Below, piece after piece: positions 285 through 59,500 of a stretch of 64,000 nucleotides of DNA. Source of the DNA: Harriotta raleighana (taxonomy: Eukaryota); contig JBNZDD010013687.1 of the NCBI GenBank assembly GCA_050575255.1, forward strand, positions 847,024 through 911,023, read 5' to 3'. Below the pieces are notes generated by a model. That model was not told the DNA's origin. It saw nothing but the letters and a program-made list of their open reading frames with translations, and did not search any database. How positions within the stretch are numbered: the first letter of the stretch is position 1; each line of letters opens with the position of its first letter. A program made the position numbers and the translations under genes.

Positions 285-523
285 AGAGAACATGAACCCC
301 ATGCTGAAGTTGACCAATGTGTTCAAATAGTGAAGTCAATATGGGTAGCAAAGCCACAGTTGTATAATTGATATTCTGAGTAACTCCCTTTAATTGAGTT
401 CGTGACTGTGAGACTTTTCCAAGTTTCAAACTTTCTAATGTTTTTTCAAGGTCTTCTGCTGCATTTTCAAAGAACAAACGCAATCCAGCCTTCACGAGCT
501 CCGAACCAAATTTCATGACATTT
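285..523 (-). CDS. RYR3: RyR exon W63 (239 nt), [14 protein letters not shown]...QHGVHVL
   Basis: AG/GT ends, phase 2-1, RyR peptide. Confidence 0.93.
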
Positions 524-3500
524 CTGCAAAAACACAATTTGGAATGTGTGAATATTCTCAGCTTGCGGTTGGAACAATATTCGATTCTGCACAACATTTA
601 ATAGAGCCCAAAGATAAACAGAAAGACTGAAGTTAAATTTACAAACATTATAGTAAGTGACAATCACCTGGTGTCCAGCGTCCGTGCCAAGATGTGTAAA
701 CAGTTCACTATTGTACCGGAATCAGTTCCTTTAGAGGTGAGAATGGAGAGATTAGAATTCCTATACATTGTCCTGTATGTGGTACACTGTAATTGAGTTT
801 AATATTCTAGACATCTTTTTTGGATCATCAGAATGTCCTTAAATTCTTGACAGTTTGGAAAATGCATCTTTCTGCGAAACATAAAACACTTCAGAACATT
901 TCTGAATTTTTACACCTTAGAACCCAATCAATTGTGAAAAAGCTGCACATCTGGATCAAATGATACTGCATAAAGAGGGCTCTCAATGCTCACAGAACTC
1001 TATCTCAGCCTAATTGAGTGTCTTCAGGAAAAGAGGGCAGACAGCAAGAACAAGTGACAGTGTTAATAAAATAGGAAGGATGTATGATTTGTCTTTGAGT
1101 CAGAGCATGCATTATTTGTTTTATGATTTTCAGGCGGTTGAATTAGCAGTGGTAACACTTTTCCAACTAGTCTGATGTACTTGCAAAAATATTGACTGCA
1201 CTCCAACTAACAACAGTGGAAAGTAAAGAGTATGAAGAGAGCAACGCTTACCAAAGAGTGAGATCCTATGTCTGACAAGGGCTGCAAGTTTGTAGAAAAT
1301 ACTGATACAGAAGAGCATGGAAAAGCAGAAAAATAAATGAGAGATAGTAAATAAGAGTTAAAAAAGTGAGTTAGTCCTGTCAAAATAATCAACTACAGAA
1401 CATGAGTCTGGTGAGTCTTTAACCAGTAAATATTTTATGCTTTTGGTTGTACTTTCCGCAAATGGCTTTTCCTCCAGCCCCCGCACTGTCTCGTGCGGCG
1501 TCCCTCAGGGCTCTGTCCTTGGTCCTCTCCTCTTCACCCTCTATATGCTCCCCCTTGGTGACATCATCCGCAGGCATGGGGTTAACTTCCACATGTATGC
1601 GGATGACANNNNNNNNNNAAAAAGAAATCCAGTGTATGATGTTTACTCCCCTCCTGCCCCATTTTTATTTAAAGAGTACAATTGTGAAGTTGTTTTTCTT
1701 TGTCTCTCTGCTCAGTGGACTCTGACCTGCTCCATGTCCCCCAACCTGTAGGCCCCATACACAGAGGTTGGGCCTTCATCCTTTCTGCTCCCACCCGTTG
1801 GAACTCCATTCCAGTCCTTTCGTCTCACCCCATCCCTTACTCCCTTCAAGGCCAGTTTCAAGAACTTCCTCTTCTACCGCGCTTTTGGCTTGCCTTCCAA
1901 CCCTCCAGATTCCAACCCCCAGCTCGGGTGCACATCCCTGGCTGTCCAGTGCTTTGCGACATCCTTCCAATATGAAAGGCATTTTACAAATGGAATTTGT
2001 TGTGGTTGTTATTATTTGTCTCCAGTATTTAAATATCACAATAACTGGTTGTCATTTTTGGGGGGCTATTTAGTGTTTGCTCAGCCAATCATCAGCAAAG
2101 CGAAGCCTGAACTGCTCAAGCTACACTTTCTGCCAACCCTGGAGAAACTCAAGAAGAAAGTGATAAAGGTTGTTCAGGAGGAAGAGCAGCTGAGGGCAGA
2201 TAGCAAAGCTGATACCCAGGAGGCTGAGCTGCTCATTCTGGACGAGTTTGCTCTCCTTTGCCGAGACCTCTATGCTTTCTGTCCAATTCTGATCCGCTAC
2301 GTGGATTACAACAGGCAAGCCAACCGGATTGTTTCTTAAATAACATGATAATGTGGACATATTTATTTATTTTGATTATTTTAATAGTGTTTGATAATGT
2401 TACCGTCACTTGACTGTACCATTCCCCTAAAGTTATTGAAAAATGAACTATTAACAGTACCTCCTTTACCTCTCCGATCTGCTCACAGCCACCCCACTAC
2501 TTGTCACCTTCGCTCAGATGGCCGAGGGACTGCTGCATGTCCATTGTCCCCTCCACCTGTTCCACAATTGGCTGGGTTTTCAGACACTAAACTCCAAATC
2601 TATCGAACTCCTAATCTCATTCCTTCCATCTTGCCCTTGTCTTTGACCACCTTCAAATCACACCTGCAGATTCAACCTCAACTTTCAGTCACCTCCCTTC
2701 CCTTTCTAGCTCAAGGACAAACTACATCACTGTTGAGTGCTCCAAAATGCTAAACACATGGAGGGTGCTGCATAAATGCAAGCTGTGGTTGTGAAGTGAA
2801 AAGATGCAGAATGATATGAAATTCATCTTGTTTGTATTTGATGACAGATCTGAATCTTGAATGTAAATTCTTGCACAAATCAAAATGGTATTAATTACTG
2901 ATACCCCTGATAACATCTTAAATCATCTGTCCAGCGCCTTGGGACGTCCTCCTGACGTGAAACGCGCTCTATAAATGTAATTTTGTTGTTGTTGTTGTTG
3001 TTGTACTGAAGTTACTGATATAAAGGGAAAATGCAAGGTTGAAAGAAAAATCTTAATATAGTATATAAATGAAGCTGGTTGACACTCAAGTTCTCCAATT
3101 ATCAGTAAAAGCTTCTATTCCCGAGACTTCCTTTTCTAGTTAGTTGGTTTATTTGTCAGCAAGTCCAATATGTACATTTTCAAGACCATTCTCTACAGTA
3201 AAAGCCGTTTTATCCGTGACTCGATGAACCGGAAAACCCGTTGAACCGGAAAACCTGTTGAACCGGCACCTCAAAAAAAAAGTTCTGATTCGATAAACCG
3301 GAAGTTATCCAGCAGAATAGCGATGTCGCATTTAATGAATCGATTGTCGCACGCGAGTACTGTGCAGGATGTCGGCTGGCCACTGATTGAGTCTAAAGCC
3401 ACGCTATAGCTGTTTTTTTAAAAAGTCACGCTGCCGTTTTGTTTTCCTCCCATGGCAGCCATTGCAGAAGTTAAGTATAAATAATACAGTACTCATACAA

Positions 3501-6500
3501 TATTCTGTTATTATAGTATCTGTTATTAATGCATTTAGTCTATTATTTATTTAGTACTGTTCAACATTCACAATAAAGTAGCCAAACAATATTCTGTTAT
3601 TACTGTATTTTCTCTATTATTTATATGGTAGTGTATAACATTTACAATAAAATATCCATACAATATTGTTAATCTGTTATTATTTAGTCTATTATTAATA
3701 TGGTATGTGTTAAAATAATTTTTAATGACATTTTTTTCAAAATTTTTATAAACCATTCAACCAGAAAGCTATTTAACCGGCACAGGCCAGGTTCTGAGGA
3801 TCCTGGATAAACAGGCTTTTACTGTGTTTGAATAGAACGCCTTCCCACCTTGCTATGATTTCTTTTTCCTTGTTGGATGCGTATCCACTGCTGCTGACAG
3901 TCTTGGTTGGAGAGGATAAGAAGTATAGGCAGTGGTTCTTAAAGTAGTCATCAATCAGAGGAAGCAGAATCTAAAACAGAAATTTTAAACAAAATAATTT
4001 GAACATTATCACTTTCATGATTATTCAAATAATAACTATACAATAAGTTTTAGACTTTTTTTAAGTTAGCAATCTCATTTAAATGTGTCTTTTTTTATTT
4101 TCGTAAAATAATCTGGAAGCAATACGTCAATATACAGTTTTTAAAAATCTGCCAAAAAAAATCCAGCAATAAAATCCCACAGATTTATAAATACCTTGTG
4201 GAAAAATGTATTTTGGGGAATAATAGGATTCTGGCTTTAAACAAGTTATTACATTTTAACGATCCTGGAAACCTAATATTCTTCTAAAGAGATTTTGTTT
4301 CAACCTCAAAGTGAAACAATCTTCAATAATAATAATCATCCTTGCATTTTATCACATTCCTCAAAGCTCTGTACAGGATATGCTGTAAAATGGTGTGACT
4401 GTATGTAACTTGTGGACAAATACTTCAGAAATGATTCACATACCTTTGCAAAAAATTTGATCTCCTGCTCATGTGGAGATTTCTCTGCTTTGCCGCTGCT
4501 GACAATGGCCTCTACCAACAAAAGCACAAGTGAACTGTCATAACCCATGGAAAGAATAATGTTAAATATTAAAAGGCAATCAGAGGCAACAAGAACAAAA
4601 TTACATTTGTATAGCATCCTTCACGATGGGTGGACATACCAACAATCAACAATCAAACAGCAACCCACCTCCAGTGCTAATTCTTTTAACATGGCATCAA
4701 TAAGAATATCAATCTATAGTTGCTTTAAGTGCTGGTAGATCCTATTAAGAAGATTGTAACCCTGACTGCTTATAACCAAATATTAAGAAACTCCAGTGAT
4801 TAAGAAATTCAGTATAAACGATGGAAATTTGAGTAAGTAAATAATGTATGGGATATTGCCACTTACCCAAATGTATGATGAATTCATGTCCTGATTCAAC
4901 ATAATTCAGTACCTTCTGAAGGAATTTATAAGCAAATCGCTTTTCAAAAGATGAAGCATCCAACTCCATGTCCTTAAGGCCTCTGTAAGTGCATCAATGA
5001 ATGAAAGAAAAAACGTTATTATGCACTATAATCCGTAACACTCCCACTCCCCATCCACCACCAAGAAACTAATCTTACTTAATCTTCAGTTGCAATAACA
5101 TTTCATTACCAATTCACTTTTATAATAACAATTTTTGTATGATTCAAGACTTCTAAGAGAACAGAATTGGTACAATCATTAAAATAATCATATAGTGTGT
5201 CCATTTTTATCTGATTGAGAGGAAAGAGCACTTCCCTTACCTGGATATTGCATAGCCATTCTTTTGGAGAAACTTGAAGAGCTCATGAGCCTTTTCACGA
5301 TCTCGGGCCTTCTCTTTGGCAGTCAATGTATCATATGGAATAAGCATTGTTTGACTGCCACCACCTAAAGGGATTTCATAGGTTAGAAAAAAATGCGCCA
5401 TTATTTTGGAATAATGATTAAAAATGGGAATATTTCAGAATTTTATTTTCAACATATTTTGCAGGATTTGCAATTCAGATTATTGGAGTTGTATAGGAGT
5501 TTCATGACTACTCTTTAATAATAACTAGTAAATAATTATTGTAATTTGTTGCTTTTTTTCAAATCAGTTTAACAAATCAATTATTGTATTTATTATTATT
5601 CTCATCTATGCTTCCCTTGTGATATTTACCTCTGCTCTTACTTACCTCTGCTTTCTAATTCAGCTTTTCGTTTTTTAGCCCAAATGTTGTAGTAGTTCTC
5701 TGCTATGACTTCTGCCATTCCCTAGGTCAGATCAATGGAACAGAACAAGAAAGTTTTTCCAAAAATTAATACCTCATTTAACTGTTTTGAACTGTGATCA
5801 ATGGACAAAGAAAATGGCAAACATCACCATCTAAATTGTATTTGAATAATTTATAACTATCCTAGCAAGAAAGTGTTTAATGGCTAAAATAAATAGATTA
5901 AAAAAGAAACTATGATGACTACCAGAGTTATTGGTCTATTTTGGCGATGGACTGGGTACAGTATTTTGTATTTTTTATGAGCTACTTGTCATATATTCCT
6001 GGCTAGTAGCTATACATTTTCCTTTAATGGGATAATGGATGATAATAAGCATCAATGGTATTTCCATTCTAGGGAAAGCTCTTCAATATACATTCCAGTC
6101 ATATTAAAAGAAAAATTGGTGAAGATATTTAAAAAACAATTAATATTTAAACTGAAGCATGTAGATTGTCAGTAAAATGGGGGAATAGGAAGAATCATAT
6201 TTTGGGGGGTGGTGGCGTGGAGGTACATGTTTAAATAAATCTCGAATTCACTCAAAAGAACTTGACTAACCTGCAGCTCTTTCGAGAGCAAAACATTGGA
6301 CAGGTCATCAAGAATAGGAGTATATCCTCCTGAACTCTGGAAGTAAAGATCCAAAGAATTACCAACACAAATAAAATTTTATTTGCATCCAACTGTGTAG
6401 AGCTTCTTCAATCATTTATACCCAAACAAAGTTTATCTAATTGATTATTTGCTACATTTATTACTACGGACTGATTAAACTTGTCAAAAGTAATTTGACT

Positions 6501-32500: not shown

Positions 32501-35500
32501 ATTACCATTGTTGTTTTGGGATCATCTCCAGATAAGCCACAATCCAGCCTGGCACCCCTAAGGAGCATAAGAATTAAAAGGTTTTTCACAGGCTGTAACT
32601 CTGAGCATGCACCTTTCGCATCATGAAAATCCATATTAAACTTTGAGGTTAGACGGATGGATTTGTCTTTGCATTTGATAGCTCAGGACATTTGAAGTCA
32701 AAACTCTGCTGTCTTTAACGTAATATAAATCAAAATATCCTGATAACCTGTTTCAATGAAAGACATTGTAAGCAATATTTGGGGGTATTTCCCCACTCCC
32801 CACCCCGGTGTGTTGAATAACTTAAAAGACTAAGGTTCTTGTTACCAAGAAATCTAAATGTTCATATAACATGCAAAACAATACAACTGAGTTGAACTCA
32901 CCTTAGTTTAGTTTTTGCTGATATTGAATCCTTCTCAAGAACATCCTCCTCATGAGCCACATGTGGAATAGTATCACGTTTAAACACTGAATCAAAGTCA
33001 ACTGGCATGCTCAAGCGGAAGTATGCCAACTCAATAATACAGTTCTGGGTGCCAATGGTTTTGTGGGTGACTTTTAGACAGGGTGGGCTGTCGATGGTAC
33101 CATCAATCCTGGTTATCTATAAATTAGATTAAGTTACATTTATTCACATCTTAATAATGTTATACAACATTTTAATAAACATCTCTATAATACTTCAGTC
33201 ATTCTGCTTTGGTTTAATTTTCCGGAGTTTTGGCATGGAGAATTATTCTTCCCATGTATTGTCGTGTTCATGAATTGAGTTTCTAACAAGAATGGTGGGT
33301 ATGATGAAAAAGCATTCATTCAGAAGAGAACACTGATGATTGTTAGTGCAGAGTATCATTTAATTTTACGATGGCAATAATTTGGAGTGATTGTTAATAT
33401 TCATTTAATCTCTTATTCATATAAAATCACTATCTTACCTCGATGTGTTTATGATCATTTGGCACAGAATGAAATTGAGGCAGACGCTTGCTGAACCACA
33501 TAGCTACATCACGGTTCATATTCACCGCATATGGCTCAAAACCCTCTTGCAAACCACACATTGTGTAGTATTTGAAAGTATTTGCATCCTTTCCAAAGTT
33601 CATCCGACCTATCTGAGATAGGCCCAGACAGCAAATTGGAATGAAACCTTGTGGTTGTGAGAGAGTGAGGGAGGAAATAAAGAAAAAGGATTGATAAATT
33701 GGTCTGATGGTTTATCACATGCCAATTTGGAATCTGATGTCATAGTATTATTGGCAAATTGTTATACAAAACCTATAGTTTAATGTGCTGCCTGATTTTA
33801 AAAGCAATGTTGGGTGTGCTAATTGGTGAGCCAGATGCATTAATATAACAGGCTTTCAAATAAAAGCTTTCGACTTGCACATACTATTTCAGCTCCAGAG
33901 CATTGCCCTGGAAAGCACATTTATTAATTATCTTGCTTAATGTGTGTAAAGAATAACATGAAAATAATAGTTTACTTACTCTGTTTTGGTTCCCATTGAT
34001 AAAATAATAGATTGCAACAACATCCCAGTATTTTTGTCTCCGGATTCACTTTAGGATGATTACATTGTGTGACTTTATAATAATCCTACCATTTGATATA
34101 GTGTCTCAAGCACTTCATAGAATATACTGTAAAGTGAATTGTCTGTATTTATGTGGGTAAAACAGCCATAAACATCAAGCGTAGAAATTGCTTTTACATC
34201 AAGCAGTCATTCACTAATCTGACACCTGTACCAATTTAATTCGGTGATATTATTATGACATTCCCAACCTACCGTCTTCTCTCTCAAAATCAGTAAAAGC
34301 GAGTTCTGAGCCGCTGTTTGTGATGAGTAGTTCTCCATTCAGAGTAAAAACCATCGATTTATCATCCATATCAATCATGCATCCAACCACATCACCAGAT
34401 TGCCAGGTACGACCAAAGTAAATGCCACCTTGATGCCAACATTGGCCCTGGAGGTGAAGATTGAAACACGATTATTTTCATTGACCTTTATTTTTGCTCC
34501 ATTCATATACTGGATGCACCCTATGAAGAATTACTGGGGAGAAATTCCACCCAGGTTGCCATTGAGAATTTAACTATAAATAATAAAGTACTAATGCAAT
34601 ATTCTGTTATTATTTAGTCTATTATTAATATGGTTTTGTTAAAATAATTTTTAATGTTTTTAAAACAAAATTTAATNCAATATTCTGTTATTATTTAGTC
34701 TATTATTAATATGGTTTATGTTAAAATCATTTTTAATGTTTTTAAAACAAAATTTAATTTTTTTAAATAAAAACGCTCAGCTGCAAAACCGTTTACTAGC
34801 CAGGTCCTGTGGGTGCCAGATAAAACGGGGTTTTACTATACATTCAAAAAAAGGCTTACAATTTGCAATGATAATAATAACAGAATCTTTGACATTCCTG
34901 TCTGGAATAAATCTAAAATCCAAAAATCCATCCAATCAATTTATTTTTTGTACAACAAGAGAAGTTATTAAGCAGTGATGACTTTTAGTTACTTTGTCTG
35001 AAAATTTGTACAGTAATTTAGAACTACACCAGAGATATTAGAAATGAAATCTCACTGAGTTACAATTGTAACATAAAACTGTCCTTTGTTCATGTGCAGA
35101 GAAATTTGAAAACTTATACCATTTTTCTAATACAGTACCTAGAAAAGGGGTATTAAGGGTTAAATCCATGCACATTTTAAATAGATGTGTTTGTTAGAGT
35201 GTTTATGACAGTGTAGCAATATTCTGTGCAGGCTCTTTTAACAGTTTTGATGTGTTAGAGGTGGAAATGTCACCTAATTCATTGGAACACTGATCATTAA
35301 AGGACACATAAAACACAATTCGACCTTTGCACAAGCAATGATATCTATCTGTTATCAAATTGAGTGAGGACTAAAGTTTGCCAAGAGTTCAATACAAGAA
35401 TTGGAAGGAGGGGTGTTTAGCTGAGAAAATCCATATAACTGGTGTAGAGGATAGACAGGAGGCAATAACATCTGCGACTGGAATTTCAGTAAGAGAGGAA

Positions 35501-38500: not shown

Positions 38501-41500
38501 GATAAATCTAATTTATTTTCTAACCAAAGTTACTTAATATGGAATTTTAATATAGCAGCAGCAAATTGTGCTGCACACAGCAAATATTAAGACTGATTAG
38601 TTTGTGTTGTTACATCGGTCAGTTTACATCTCCTGCAGTTATTTTTACCTGCTGGATGCCATAAGTCCAACCTTGTCTGATCCTATCTTTAGCCCATACA
38701 TTATGTGCATTTTCAGCCAGTTTATCAACGAGAACATCTTGGGTAGAGAGAAGCTTGACATCCGAAAGGTCCAGCGGAGCAGGCTTATAACCATTTGGCA
38801 TCATATAACTAAAATTGAACAAAAAATTTCATGTTTTAAAATGTCAGCAAAAAAAATTAACCATGCAACTTCTAAGTAAACCTCCAAAACTAAATGTAAT
38901 TTATTTTCCTCTCAAGATCAACATTTTCTATTCATGTTTGAATACTATAAATACTATATTCATGTTTGTAGGTTCAATCAGGGAAGGTTGACTAAAAAAC
39001 ATAAGCTACTTTGGGTTTGAAGTTCTTGAGAATCAATGGTAGATTTATTTTGTATTAAAACTATTTCAAATGTATTAAAATTATTTCACACTTTCATTTT
39101 AAGAATTCGACCATTTAATTAAAATTGTCAGATCTAGTCTGAAATTAAACTTGATTGAGGGAGAGAACTAATTAGTTTCCTTCTTCCTTTATTTTTACAC
39201 TCTTTAGTATTACTCTAAACACTGAAGAATCTAGTTCTCAAATTATTTACAGTTAACGGACAGAACAATAAAACATAATTATCACCCAACAAAAACACTT
39301 CTGAAATTCTGAAAGCTCGTGTAAATTTACAAGGAATAGACAAATATGAAAAGACAAGTAGAGCGAGCATTGAATGGGACTAGATTAGTACAGAGAAAAC
39401 ACCAGCAGACTTGATGGGTCTAATAACCAACAACAAATGACAATTATACAGTAGTTTTCACATTAGGAGGACATCCCAAAGCCCTAAACAGTCAGGGATT
39501 CACATCAGTCTCTGTATTGGTATATTCTAACTTTTATTCATTTGATCCAATAATACATATTCTGTAAGGTACTTAAATTAACATGTACAATAAAAGCTTC
39601 TTTATCCGGCACCTAACCAACCGGAACGCTCAATCAACCGGTATCTCCCAATACAATTCACCATTCCAGCAAATGGATCTCATACCGGAGCCATCCGGGA
39701 CACTCGCAAGTATGTTCTCTGTGCGCATGCGCACTTATTAAACTTAGCAAATGCTGGAATTTTCATTTTACCGAGTGTGCTGGAATGCTTTATTGGTAAG
39801 TATCCATACAATATTCTGTTATTATTTAATCTATTATTAATATGGTACGTTTTAAAACAAGTAAATTTTTTGTGTAGGATTTTCGGCAACTTGCCGCTCG
39901 AATATCCGGCATATTTGATTAAACAGCACTGGTCAGGTCCCAAGGCTGCTGGATAAACAAGCTTTTACTGTAAATGGAAAAAGTAAAAAACATACTGATC
40001 AGCTGAACAACTCATAGACATTCTCCTGATCACTTACTACTGTATTAGGTTACACTTACTTTTTGGGAAGTTTCATTCTTTGTAGATTTTCTTCAGCTTT
40101 TGGTTTAGTGACAACAACGTGACATCCAAGAGCCAACAATGTCCTGAAAAGACATTTCAATCCCTTAAGTAACTTCTGAGACTCAATTTATTTTAGTTTT
40201 TGCACAGTATTTGTAACTGAGGCAGATTTAATAAGAACAAACTTACTTCAACGTTTCAAAAGACATTTGCAAATTGTAGTTTCTCTCTTGCTCTGGCAGT
40301 TTTGGAAAATTCACCAAGCAAGGATGCTGCCTCTTGTTGTCATCTCGTAACTAAAAATGAATCACAGGTAGCTATGAGAAGGATTGCTGGCTTTGTTGCC
40401 AATCCTGAAGATCCCCCAGCTAAAGTACGAGCTCTTTCAAGGTCAGCCTCAAGATCTTCCTTTTTGACTGTGCCTTTGGTCATCTTCCCCCTTGGTTTCC
40501 ACACCCAGCTAAGGTGCCAAGCCAGGATTAAGCACCTTGCGATACCTTCCCAAAGTGAAAGGCACTATGTATAAATATAAATTTGTAACGTATTGCATGA
40601 TGGGACTTGCATTGTGAATAGACAAAGTGAGCGTACTGGCCATTACCAACAAGACAAGAATCTAGAAAGTTTGCTCAAAGATGCCTAGGTTTCCATTTTA
40701 GTAACCATTTGTTATCCACATTTCAGTGAAGCCCATTCCGCAAGTAATGAATTATAAATTATCACAGAAGAGTGCACTTTGGCAGGTGATTGAAAAGCGA
40801 TAGTAAATCACTCTTTTGCCATATCTTAAAATAACATAATTTTATATTGGAAAATAAAACCAATAAGTTACTATGCTGTATATTTAACCCAGGTTTTAAA
40901 CAAATAAGAGGTTATGGTGTTTGACCCTCACTCTTATTAGATTTAGTATGAAGAGCATTGAAAAATCCTTTAACCTCACAACTGCCTTCTCAAATTTATA
41001 AACAAACAAATCTTTCATTGCATTATTGCTTGGGATGAACATATATTTTATTTCAACATTAGACTATCTAACTAAAATAAAAGATGGTAATAAACTAATA
41101 ACTCATTTTGCAAGACAAACTCATTAACATGATGTACAATTACTGTATAATCTTACCTTCCCGTATACCCAGCCAAGTTCAATCTTATTCATTGCCCAAA
41201 GTTCATGGATATTTTCTGCAAGTTTATCCCGTACTTTTTCCAGTTGTGGAGGTAAAATAATCTGCACAATAACAGGAAACATTTCAGCATTTCATCTATT
41301 TCACTTCCACATGCAACAAGAGTGTTACACAAGTATCCTTTCTTTATTTGTGGATTCCTTGCAGGGTAACCAATAAATTATAGAACTATTGCAAAGGATC
41401 ACTAAAATAAAAGGAGTAGGACTTTGGGTGATGGGGGGATAAAAGAAAAATGGTCCTAAATAATCAATGATCCATGCTGTATATTGAAAGTTGAGCCCTT

Positions 41501-56500: not shown

Positions 56501-59500
56501 TTACCAAGAGAGGAACTACTAAGGCTCGAAATCCCACCAAAGTTTAGCCCTATCAGACCATTCTGTTTTAAGATTTAAGAAGGTTCATATTTATAGAAAA
56601 CTCTTGAATTCAGTATCATTTAGGAAGTTGGATTTCCACAGGTCACATGCTGTTGAAAATAACCAGCTTCTGTATTATGACTGAGTTTTCTTAAAGGATA
56701 AGATTTAGTGGAATTTCATACCTCTGATGTCAAAATTGCTCCTTCACTCTTCGTGTACATTACTTGCAGTGAGAATTAGAGATGAGGGGCAATTGGACAT
56801 CAGTAGCAATAAACTGCTGAAACCAGTAGTGAAGTTACTTGTTAAAAAAAAGTTTTACTTCCACACTTTACTGGATGCAGTTACTGTATTAAGAACTCCA
56901 GGAGCAAAAAACCTCAGTGATGGAAGTAAATGGTTAACATCACAAACGGTTACTGTTCACAGTCATTATGTTCTAACTAATAATCCAGAAAAACAATACC
57001 AGTTTTGCTGATACGGAACTCAACTATAATTGATCTGCCATTTTGTTATACTAAAGGTGATTGAAGTGTATCTTCCTCTTTTGTTGTGGATTTATTACCC
57101 GATCGTCAAGGATGCTGTATTTTTTTTCTACTTAAGACCATTTACCGGAAATGACCAGTTTACCTCTAGCTTCTATTTGCTTCTCTAACATGAACAACAA
57201 TAAACGATCCAATTTTATAAACACAAGAGGTATCAGCATTAAAGGACGATTGATTGGCTTGTCAATCTATAAAGTCTTTTTGGCTGACAGAATGTTAAAA
57301 ACCTTGAGGAATCATTGTTATTTCAATAAATCTTCTCTGTGCAAATTTTAAGAAAAAAACCCACAACTATCTTTGTCTTTACTAAATTGAAAATATGATT
57401 CGCAAATTAAGTTCTGCTGGATTACAGACAGCATAGTTAGCATCTATCAAATAACAGCAGCTATCAAACTACAGTATCATGCTGCACTTTACTTAAAACC
57501 CAGAGAGGCAAGATTGGAGTTGTTTTCTGAAAAACATAATGAGGACTATTCCATTGCTGATGTGCAGACAGGAATATTTCTCTCTCTTTACAGTTGAACA
57601 AGATTTTAAACAAAGAATGGAAATAGCTATCGGACAACTGGTATTGTTTTTGAATGGACTACTGGATGAAAATGACAGCTTGACTTACCTTTATCATAAA
57701 CTTCTAAAAAGCGGGAAAAGATGAAAGTAAATAAAATGAATTAATGTTAGCATGTCATTGTTGCACTTTTCATCAAGTTGGCACTACAAAAAACATCTCA
57801 TTTGAATTTGCTTACACATTTGAGTTAAAGCATGTCTTAATTATGAATTCTTCAAAGAAAAGCAACTCATTTCAAATGTCGTTTACAACAATGACTGCTG
57901 GAGATATCATTTTTGACTCTTAGCCTTCAACGTTTAAGCGAAGTCAAAACACCAATTCCTCGGAGTCAAGACATTTGCTGCATTTTAATACAAGTTACAT
58001 CTCCCTCATCAGCCTTTGGAAGAAAGGTTAAAAGCTCACATTTGTTATCATTGAGTAACGGGGTTGTGGGGTGGCACGTACAAAACATCCGGCAGATCAC
58101 ACCAAAGACATTTTCAATGCCTTGATAACTGTCTTATGAGAACTGCTGGGAACAGTTTCCCAGGATGGGTGTTGACACGGCTTTTAATGTGTTACAATAA
58201 ATAACACTGAGTTCATTTACCCACCACTTTTAACACTGACTGCATCAAAGGGGGCAAAATATTCATGTACAGTATTGGTGATACGTAAGTGATATCCATC
58301 AATAAGAAGCAATACTACTGAAAACAACATAAACCAAATATACTAAATACAGAGTAGCCCTATGATAACAGGCTTCATTTTAGTGTAGAATCATTTATAA
58401 CACAAATGGGTTGTGGACCCCAACTCACTGCAAGGCAGCTCATGTACTGAGTCCAGCTGGTTCCCACTCCCAATATTGCCAAGTTCTAAGTGATTTAAAT
58501 TGCCGTTTCCTATGCATTGCCAGTTGCCTGGACATAATAATAATAATCCTTAAATTTGATATAGTAAAGTGAATTGACTTTATAGTTAGCAGGCGAAAAA
58601 CGGCAGTCAATTGCGCACAGCAGGTTCCCACAAATATTAGTAGATTGAAATGACATCAGAAGCGAACTGATGATCTGGAAACTGTTTTTTTTTTATTAAG
58701 GTGCACATGAAGCAATCCGGCTGATTGTGTGCATGTGCAGTGAAATTGACCATCACAGCCTTNATTGAAATGACATCAGAAGCGAACTGATGATCTGGAA
58801 ACTGTTTTTTTTTATTAAGGTGCACATGAGCAATCCGGCTGATTGTGTGCATGTGCAATGAAATTGACCATCACAGCCTCGCTAAAAGGTACATTGAAAT
58901 TTTATAGATCCAACTACAGCAATGTACTACCTTAAAACAAGGCCCCTTGGTAGCAGTTACATTTGTCAGTTTTTAGAGTAACAAAAATTATCATCTCAAC
59001 TTTTAAGCTTCCATTATCTGATACATAGAACAAAATGCATACAGAACTTATATTCAACAGCATATATAATGTACAGAGCCTTTCATGTATAATGGACGCT
59101 TCAAAGCCTTCACATCAAACGATGGGAAACACCAAGCAGGGAAGAGAAGAATGGGGTATTGGTCAAGGTTAAAGAGGGTTTTTTAAGGAAGGGAGAAGAT
59201 GTACAAGATAAACAGATATTGGGAGAGGGTTCCGGGTTGTAGGGCACAGTGCAAGGAAATGGTAAGATGGAAGGAGTGAGGAACAAGGGCGAGTCCAGAA
59301 TCAGAAGAGATAGTACAGCCAGGAGAATGGGGATAGGGGAGATTATGGAGACAAGGTAATAGTGAGACAAGAGTGTGAATGGATTTAAGATTAAGAGTCT
59401 TAAGTGAATACCAAAAAAAAGATTTTTTCCCCCCAAAACAATAACATAATAAATAATAAACTATATTCAAAACTCGCACAGAAATACGTAATACAAAATG

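What the first reader, a model, noticed from the sequence alone, without database searches (positions are those of the whole stretch)
2074..2314. Intact RyR exon inverted and out of order inside an intron of its own gene
Seen: a stop-free 241-nt exon (VFAQPIISK...YVDYNR) with acceptor and donor lies on the + strand between minus-strand exons 3849-3970 and 1252-1301, which splice in frame without it. Known: in RYR1-3 this exon lies about four exons downstream of the last exon in the window (285-523). Inference: it is either a real inverted intragenic duplicate or a mis-assembly. If real, the pre-mRNA would carry an antisense copy of its own exon able to form a long duplex, which could affect A-to-I editing, exon skipping or back-splicing.
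Basis: partly seen in the sequence, partly recalled or inferred. Interest (0 to 1): 0.8.

Follow-up and report, generated by a model that had tools for sequence, protein, structure and literature searches.

The report
Likely gap-fill copy of RyR3 exon
A letter-perfect backwards copy of one ryanodine receptor 3 exon sits beside a sequence gap inside a young jumping-gene insertion, and is most likely an assembly error that replaced the middle of that insertion, not a real antisense exon.

Summary
In detail: 2074-2314 (+) is an intact RyR3 exon inside a minus-strand RyR3 intron. It is part of a 1,386-nt block (1619-3004) that copies, inverted, the in-order locus 4.2 kb left (1,375 bases exact, one microsatellite indel). 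The block sits inside a single young 5'-truncated LINE insertion: RT fragment 1453-1608, a 10-N gap, the copy, then a 77-nt LINE tail shared with the source, all within an 8-bp target-site duplication. A relative's contig shows the empty site to the base, and the exon at roughly single-copy depth. Sister LINE copies carry about 900 nt of LINE body where the copy lies. Most of them break the assembly at this point, and 5 of 8 ten-N gaps seen abut near-identical local duplicates. Best reading (0.84): the assembly was extended through the shared tail into the wrong neighbour. Not proven. Low-coverage raw reads of a closely matching sample were 1.9-fold deeper on the copy than on the flanks, which leans towards two copies but is confounded. 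A real recent template-switch copy stays at about 0.15. One PCR or long read decides it.

The parts
1446..1453 (+). Left copy of an 8-bp target-site duplication (GTTGTACT)
   Evidence: Identical to 3000-3007; an empty site built on it predicts 12 letters between 1451 and 3018, and the relative's contig has 12 (table 8, record 1)
1453..1608 (+). 5'-truncated young LINE reverse-transcriptase fragment ending at YADD
   Evidence: Pfam RVT_1 E 8e-10; 99% identical to the 39 other copies listed of 40 scored, 2257 candidates; 5' boundary
1609..1618 (.). 10-N assembly gap
   Evidence: the only 10-N run among 45 N runs in 714 kb
1619..2915 (+). Inverted copy of RyR3 intron-exon-intron sequence from G000:C13687:843104-844401, standing where about 900 nt of LINE body is expected
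   Evidence: exact identity; LINE body 904, 904 and 761 nt in three gapless copies
2074..2314 (+). The copied RyR3 exon (antisense to the gene), AG acceptor, GC donor
2916..3004 (+). LINE 3' tail (77 nt identical to family and to the short tail at the source) plus (TTG)n
3000..3007 (+). Right copy of the target-site duplication
3849..3970 (-). RyR3 exon upstream (in gene order) of the host intron
1252..1301 (-). RyR3 exon downstream of the host intron

Best explanation
The inverted exon is most likely a false duplication made during assembly, in which the middle of a young LINE insertion was likely filled with neighbouring RyR3 sequence. Shown: one LINE insertion occupies 1454-3007 between an 8-bp target-site duplication; its left end is RT sequence, its right end the family tail; a second, tail-only copy of the same LINE lies 4-6 kb away in the opposite orientation, right beside the true exon. 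Inferred: extending leftwards from unique sequence at 3008 through the 77-nt tail, the assembler or gap filler faced two continuations, the multi-copy LINE body or the locally anchored flank of the nearby tail copy. It took the second, copied 1.3 kb including the exon, and was joined to the left contig with a 10-N spacer. The true sequence would be a plain LINE of about 1.15 kb, and the gene would hold one copy of the exon.
For: (1) 1,375 consecutive identical bases, with the only difference in the microsatellite. (2) One end abuts a gap and the other a repeat tail shared with the source. (3) The relative's contig joins 1451 to 3018 with the 12 letters predicted for the empty site, so the whole block is one insertion that starts and ends as LINE. 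(4) Gapless sister copies hold LINE body there: 904, 904, 761 nt, with further colinear copies. (5) The family breaks this assembly: 19 of 19 loci and 23 of 29 non-self loci have a gap after YADD. (6) In 714 kb both duplicates of 1 kb or more are at least 99.9% identical and abut gaps. (7) 5 of 8 distinct ten-N gaps seen abut a local duplicate of 415 nt or more at 99.3% or more; at C13641 a 654-nt non-LINE spacer recurs four times at 100% beside LINE copies, three of which stop at the same base before a 10-N gap. (8) In the relative the exon contigs have depth 44 and 42 against 36 for the flank contig. (9) Skipping a 241-nt exon would shift the frame, which argues against a fixed real duplex (inference).
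Against: Raw reads of organism A (one sample, 4.2x expected) averaged 5.1x on five bins of the copy and 2.7x on ten flank bins, ratio 1.88; P 0.011 (reads) to 0.043 (pairs) under one copy. After a rough cross-mapping correction the likelihood ratio for two copies falls to about 1.5, and against the genome-wide expectation it is 0.19, so the test is inconclusive, but at face value it leans against. No read of the window's own individual was seen, and no junction-spanning read was listed either way. None of the ten hand-picked neighbourhoods showed an inverted case exactly like this one; the C13641 analogue is direct and is itself unchecked by reads. The copy (1,297 nt + 10 N) is longer than the 904-nt body, though within the spans of 376-1,419 nt written across gaps in sister copies. 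Why the copy stops at 1619 is not shown.
Confidence: 0.84

Rival explanations
1. A real, very recent DNA-level template switch: a break or stalled fork in the young LINE invaded the inverted tail copy 4-6 kb away (77 nt of identity), copied 1.3 kb including the exon, and rejoined the LINE's left part. The pre-mRNA would carry a perfect 1.39-kb inverted repeat.
For: Raw-read depth ratio 1.88. Homology at one junction and a nearby template fit replicative template switching (templated insertions at junctions: PMC5120786, abstract seen). A real branch point would explain why the assembly stops at 1619.
Against: Zero substitutions in 1,297 nt while sister LINE copies already differ by about 0.2-5%; absent from the relative; same gap-plus-duplicate pattern elsewhere in this assembly; the two exon bins read only 2.2x, though a human-read filter may lower them; the duplex would cover a frame-shifting exon.
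Confidence: 0.11
2. A real retro-chimera: the LINE enzyme recognised the intronic tail in RyR3 pre-mRNA (it lies in the sense direction), reverse-transcribed 1.3 kb of pre-mRNA into the new site, then switched to LINE RNA and stopped at 1453.
For: The block has a target-site duplication and LINE ends; the copy is unspliced and ends at the tail; several LINEs need their own 3' tail to start (PMC3747384, passages seen).
Against: The copy's microsatellite lacks the extra T of the source and has the plain family form; insertion within 5 kb of its own template has no reason in this mechanism (own knowledge); needs an internal start plus a switch; all points against the first rival also apply.
Confidence: 0.04
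3. An old, functional antisense exon kept to regulate RyR3 splicing or editing.
For: Only the intact look of the exon.
Against: Introns are as identical as the exon, so intactness reflects copying, not selection; the relative lacks it; the host LINE is young.
Confidence: 0.01

Closest known systems
False (homotype) duplications in genome assemblies, Ko et al. 2022, PMC9516828 (passages seen)
   Same: Duplicate pair on one scaffold, separated by an assembly gap, producing a false exon gain; the paper names incorrect gap filling as a cause.
   Different: Here the copy is inverted and is bounded by a shared LINE tail; the paper's depth and discordant-pair criteria could not be settled with the reads available.
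Inverted intronic Alu pairs that alter splicing, Lev-Maor et al. 2008, PMC2533698 (abstract and outline seen)
   Same: What the copy would work like if real: an inverted pair in pre-mRNA that base-pairs, is edited and shifts exon inclusion.
   Different: The arms would be a 1.39-kb perfect copy that includes the exon and both splice sites, not two repeats near an exon.
Replicative template-switch insertions (FoSTeS/MMBIR), PMC5120786 (abstract and outline seen)
   Same: Local templated copy with homology at a junction.
   Different: Second junction is hidden in an N gap; no read support shown here.
5'-truncated L2/CR1-type LINE insertion (clade name recalled from the RT motifs and repeat tail, not from a call)
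   Same: RT fragment, 5' truncation, short-repeat tail, target-site duplication, empty site in a relative.
   Different: The body between YADD and the tail is replaced in the assembly.

Membership tests
False duplication (assembly artefact) | Gap between or beside the duplicated pair on one scaffold | tested here: met
   10-N gap at 1609-1618 directly abuts the copy
False duplication (assembly artefact) | Near-zero divergence between copies | tested here: met
   1,375 exact bases, one microsatellite indel
False duplication (assembly artefact) | Read depth supports one copy only | tested here: inconclusive
   Copy 5.1x, flanks 2.7x, expected single copy 4.2x; likelihood ratios 17, 5.9, 1.5 and 0.19 by baseline; another sample than the assembled one as far as can be told
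False duplication (assembly artefact) | No reads or discordant pairs across the novel junction | tested here: inconclusive
   Tail bins are swamped by thousands of LINE reads and only the best-supported rows were shown
False duplication (assembly artefact) | Long reads cross the site without the duplicate | not testable with these tools
   No long-read run listed
Young 5'-truncated LINE insertion | RT-coding fragment and family 3' tail in the same orientation | tested here: met
Young 5'-truncated LINE insertion | Target-site duplication and empty site in a relative | tested here: met
   8-bp repeat; 12 letters predicted and 12 seen
Young 5'-truncated LINE insertion | Continuous LINE body between RT and tail | tested here: not met
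   RyR3 sequence stands there in the assembly; this is the anomaly being explained
Real inverted intragenic duplication with RNA duplex | Both junctions supported by reads | tested here: inconclusive
   left junction is an N gap
Real inverted intragenic duplication with RNA duplex | Present in relatives | tested here: not met
   one relative tested (run X5): empty site
Real inverted intragenic duplication with RNA duplex | A-to-I editing, skipping or back-splicing in RNA | not testable with these tools
   no RNA holder listed
RyR3 exon | Best match to RyR3 and colinear place in the gene | tested here: met

The most novel reading that the evidence does not exclude
A recent, possibly still polymorphic, LINE-tail-guided template switch put a perfect 1.39-kb inverted copy of an RyR3 exon with both splice sites into an upstream intron of the same gene. 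The pre-mRNA could fold a perfect duplex over that exon with six exons in a 4.24-kb loop: a natural self-antisense allele predicted to cause editing, frame-shifting exon skipping or circular RNA.
Probability: 0.15. Interest if true: 0.55.

Novelty: not a real feature. Interest (0 to 1): 0.12.

Why it matters
If an artefact, it matters only as a warning: in this assembly ten-N gaps inside a young LINE family can hide kilobase false copies of nearby genes, and annotation or exon counts there should be distrusted. If real, it would be a rare natural test of what a perfect self-antisense exon copy does to splicing of a calcium-release channel, and an example of LINE tails seeding local exon duplication. 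One search for RYR3 with inverted duplication, intron and exon returned 1 paper, on precancer genomes, seen as a listing only; that is too narrow to claim absence from print.

Tried and rejected
Misplaced exon (inversion of a contig): rejected, the exon is in order at its proper place and RyR3 exons are colinear on the minus strand. Paralogue-derived exon: rejected, the only other genomic match is 72% identical on C13327. Depth test with raw reads: inconclusive; likeness was set to 88, which lets short repeat matches add depth, and 2455-2795 is an old repeat with 66-79% relatives. No RNA holder listed. A genome search with the LINE tail returned nothing because common words are skipped. Search for an exact inverted analogue: 10 neighbourhoods of 20 kb, picked by hand from about 70 LINE loci because they looked odd, gave 1 direct-orientation analogue, 1 LINE-only overlap at a 10-N gap, 2 duplicates at single-N gaps, 1 short duplicate away from gaps and 5 with none; this is a biased sample and gives no rate. 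L090 repeats L012 and L135 repeats L098; they were counted once in the ten-N tally. Two ten-N gaps (L092, L119) showed no duplicate but were seen only within about 1.5 kb; L098 has about 18 extra bases. Pfam did not name the LINE clade beyond RVT_1. Earlier scan notes: none for this genome. Literature searches on gap filling and on antisense exon copies gave no paper on this exact case; seen as listings only.

Full report
Observation. The window is G000:C13687:847024-911023. Bases 2074-2314 (+) read stop-free in the third frame and match RyR3 best (PDB 9c1e 3196-3274, E 1e-36; best hits are also RyR3 where named). The host gene runs on the minus strand with exons in order across the 114 kb examined. 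Exons 3849-3970 and 1252-1301 join without a stop. The proper copy of the exon is at contig 843706-843946 (-), the fourth exon after 285-523, identical to the window copy. Its donor is GC in both copies.

What was copied. Self-comparison shows one block, 1619-3004, equal to the reverse complement of contig 843015-844401: 1,375 bases exact, then a one-base indel in a (TTG)n run. Introns are as identical as the exon, so the intact exon says nothing about selection. The arms are 4,240 nt apart and enclose six exons (the one near 669-729 is read from a merged hit).

The frame around it. Left of the block is a 10-N gap, and left of that a reverse-transcriptase fragment, 1453-1608, ending at YADD (Pfam RVT_1), 99% identical to all 39 other copies listed among 40 scored of 2257 candidates. 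The right end of the block, 2916-3004, is that same family's 3' tail: 8 of 19 fetched copies show it downstream of the same fragment, 7 of them at 100%, and identity extends over 77 nt. The source locus carries only this tail, a very short copy in the opposite orientation. An 8-bp repeat flanks the whole unit (1446-1453, 3000-3007). An empty site on that model has 12 letters between 1451 and 3018. A contig of a relative (run X5; 49 differences in 922 aligned bases) joins those two points with exactly 12 letters, and holds the exon on separate contigs at depth 44 and 42 against 36. So one LINE insertion occupies 1454-3007, it is absent in the relative, and it starts and ends as LINE. Gapless sister copies have 904, 904 and 761 nt of LINE body between YADD and the tail (more colinear copies). 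The window has 10 N and 1,297 nt of RyR3 sequence instead.

How the assembly treats this family. All 19 loci and 23 of 29 non-self loci have a gap after YADD. In 714 kb around the window there are 45 N runs; 9 of 16 duplicate pairs of 80 nt or more at 97% or more touch a gap, and both pairs over 1 kb do: this one and an exact 1,093-nt tandem pair around a single N. Eight distinct ten-N gaps were seen in all; five abut local duplicates of 415 nt or more at 99.3% or more. At C13641 a 654-nt non-LINE spacer is present four times at 100%, and three LINE copies end on the same base before a 10-N gap: the same pattern of running through the LINE into a neighbour's flank, in direct orientation. Those neighbourhoods were hand-picked and are not checked by reads. 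Gaps between duplicates and incorrect gap filling are the marks of false duplication described in PMC9516828 (passages seen).

Mechanism, inferred. Extending leftwards from unique sequence at 3008, the path enters a 77-nt tail present in many copies. The true continuation is multi-copy LINE body; the other is the unique flank of the tail copy 4-6 kb away, which local read pairs would support. Taking it copies the exon in inverted orientation, because the two tails are inverted. The fill was then set against the left contig with a ten-N spacer. The LINE frame, the identity and the gap pattern are shown; the assembler's choice is inferred; the stop at 1619 is unexplained.

Evidence against. Three raw-read runs of one sample of organism A, whose reads showed none of the relative's differences in the 40 rows listed, gave 4.2x expected depth. 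Five bins in the copy averaged 5.1x (2.2, 2.2, 8.4, 6.2, 6.5) and ten flank bins 2.7x (1.1-5.9); bins over young repeats were left out. Ratio 1.88, P 0.011-0.043 under one copy, likelihood ratio 6-17 for two copies at face value. Three of the five bins overlap an old repeat and drew extra contigs in the relative; using that as a correction the ratio drops to about 1.5, and against the genome-wide expectation it is 0.19. About 60 read-equivalents underlie all this. I treat it as inconclusive with a lean towards real, and it is why the artefact reading is 0.84 and not higher. Junction reads could not be judged because LINE reads swamp the tail. No RNA or long-read run was listed.

Rivals. A real template switch between the two tails (0.11) gives the same anatomy and explains the stop at 1619 as a branch point, but needs an event so recent that 1,297 nt carry no substitution, and an allele whose duplex covers a 241-nt exon whose skipping shifts the frame. 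A retro-chimera primed on the intronic tail of RyR3 pre-mRNA (0.04) fits tail-dependent LINEs (PMC3747384, passages) but the copy's microsatellite follows the family, not the source. An old functional antisense exon is contradicted by the empty site.

Comparison and verdict. It works like a false duplication at a repeat-induced gap and meets the two sequence criteria; the read criteria are open. If real it would act like inverted intronic repeats that pair and shift splicing (PMC2533698, abstract), in an unusually strong form. The L2/CR1 label for the LINE is recalled, not from a call. No supplements were read; none bears on these claims as far as I can tell. Verdict: most likely not a real feature; interest 0.12; novel case 0.15 probable, 0.55 if true.

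Noticed in passing
G000:C13687:830291-832477 (L005; about 15-17 kb left of the window): Exact 1,093-nt tandem duplicate around a single N inside the same RyR3 gene; likely an unmerged contig overlap.
   Followed up: partly
window 58644-58879 and 34592-34758: Short near-identical tandem pairs (118 and 86 nt) around the single Ns at 58763 and 34677; same overlap pattern.
   Followed up: partly
window 2315-2320 and contig 843700-843705: The exon uses a GC donor; the paralogous exon on C13327 has GT at the same place.
   Followed up: no
L163-L164 (G000:C13641:2980200-3000199): Three 10-N gaps, each after a 1.7-3.8 kb near-identical duplicate ending at the same LINE base; probable looped gap fill, or a real LINE-built tandem array.
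   Followed up: partly
L153 (G000:C13532:681150-687600): At least 1,903 nt duplicated at 99.95%, ending at a single N.
   Followed up: no
window about 3172-3827: High-copy repeat with internal 74-nt tandem units, absent from the relative's contig (43 letters there): a second recent insertion in the same intron.
   Followed up: partly
genome-wide, loci L011-L029, L091-L144: A very young, probably active LINE family with (TTG)n tails; at least one copy has an open RT frame over 220 codons (L097).
   Followed up: partly
window 38655-38798 and 41160-41261 (-): Weak extra tblastn hits to RyR3 repeat-domain residues, probably the first of the two Ry repeat pairs earlier in the gene.
   Followed up: no
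L003/L009 (G000:C13327:111148-111381): A second ryanodine receptor gene, 72% identical over this exon.
   Followed up: no
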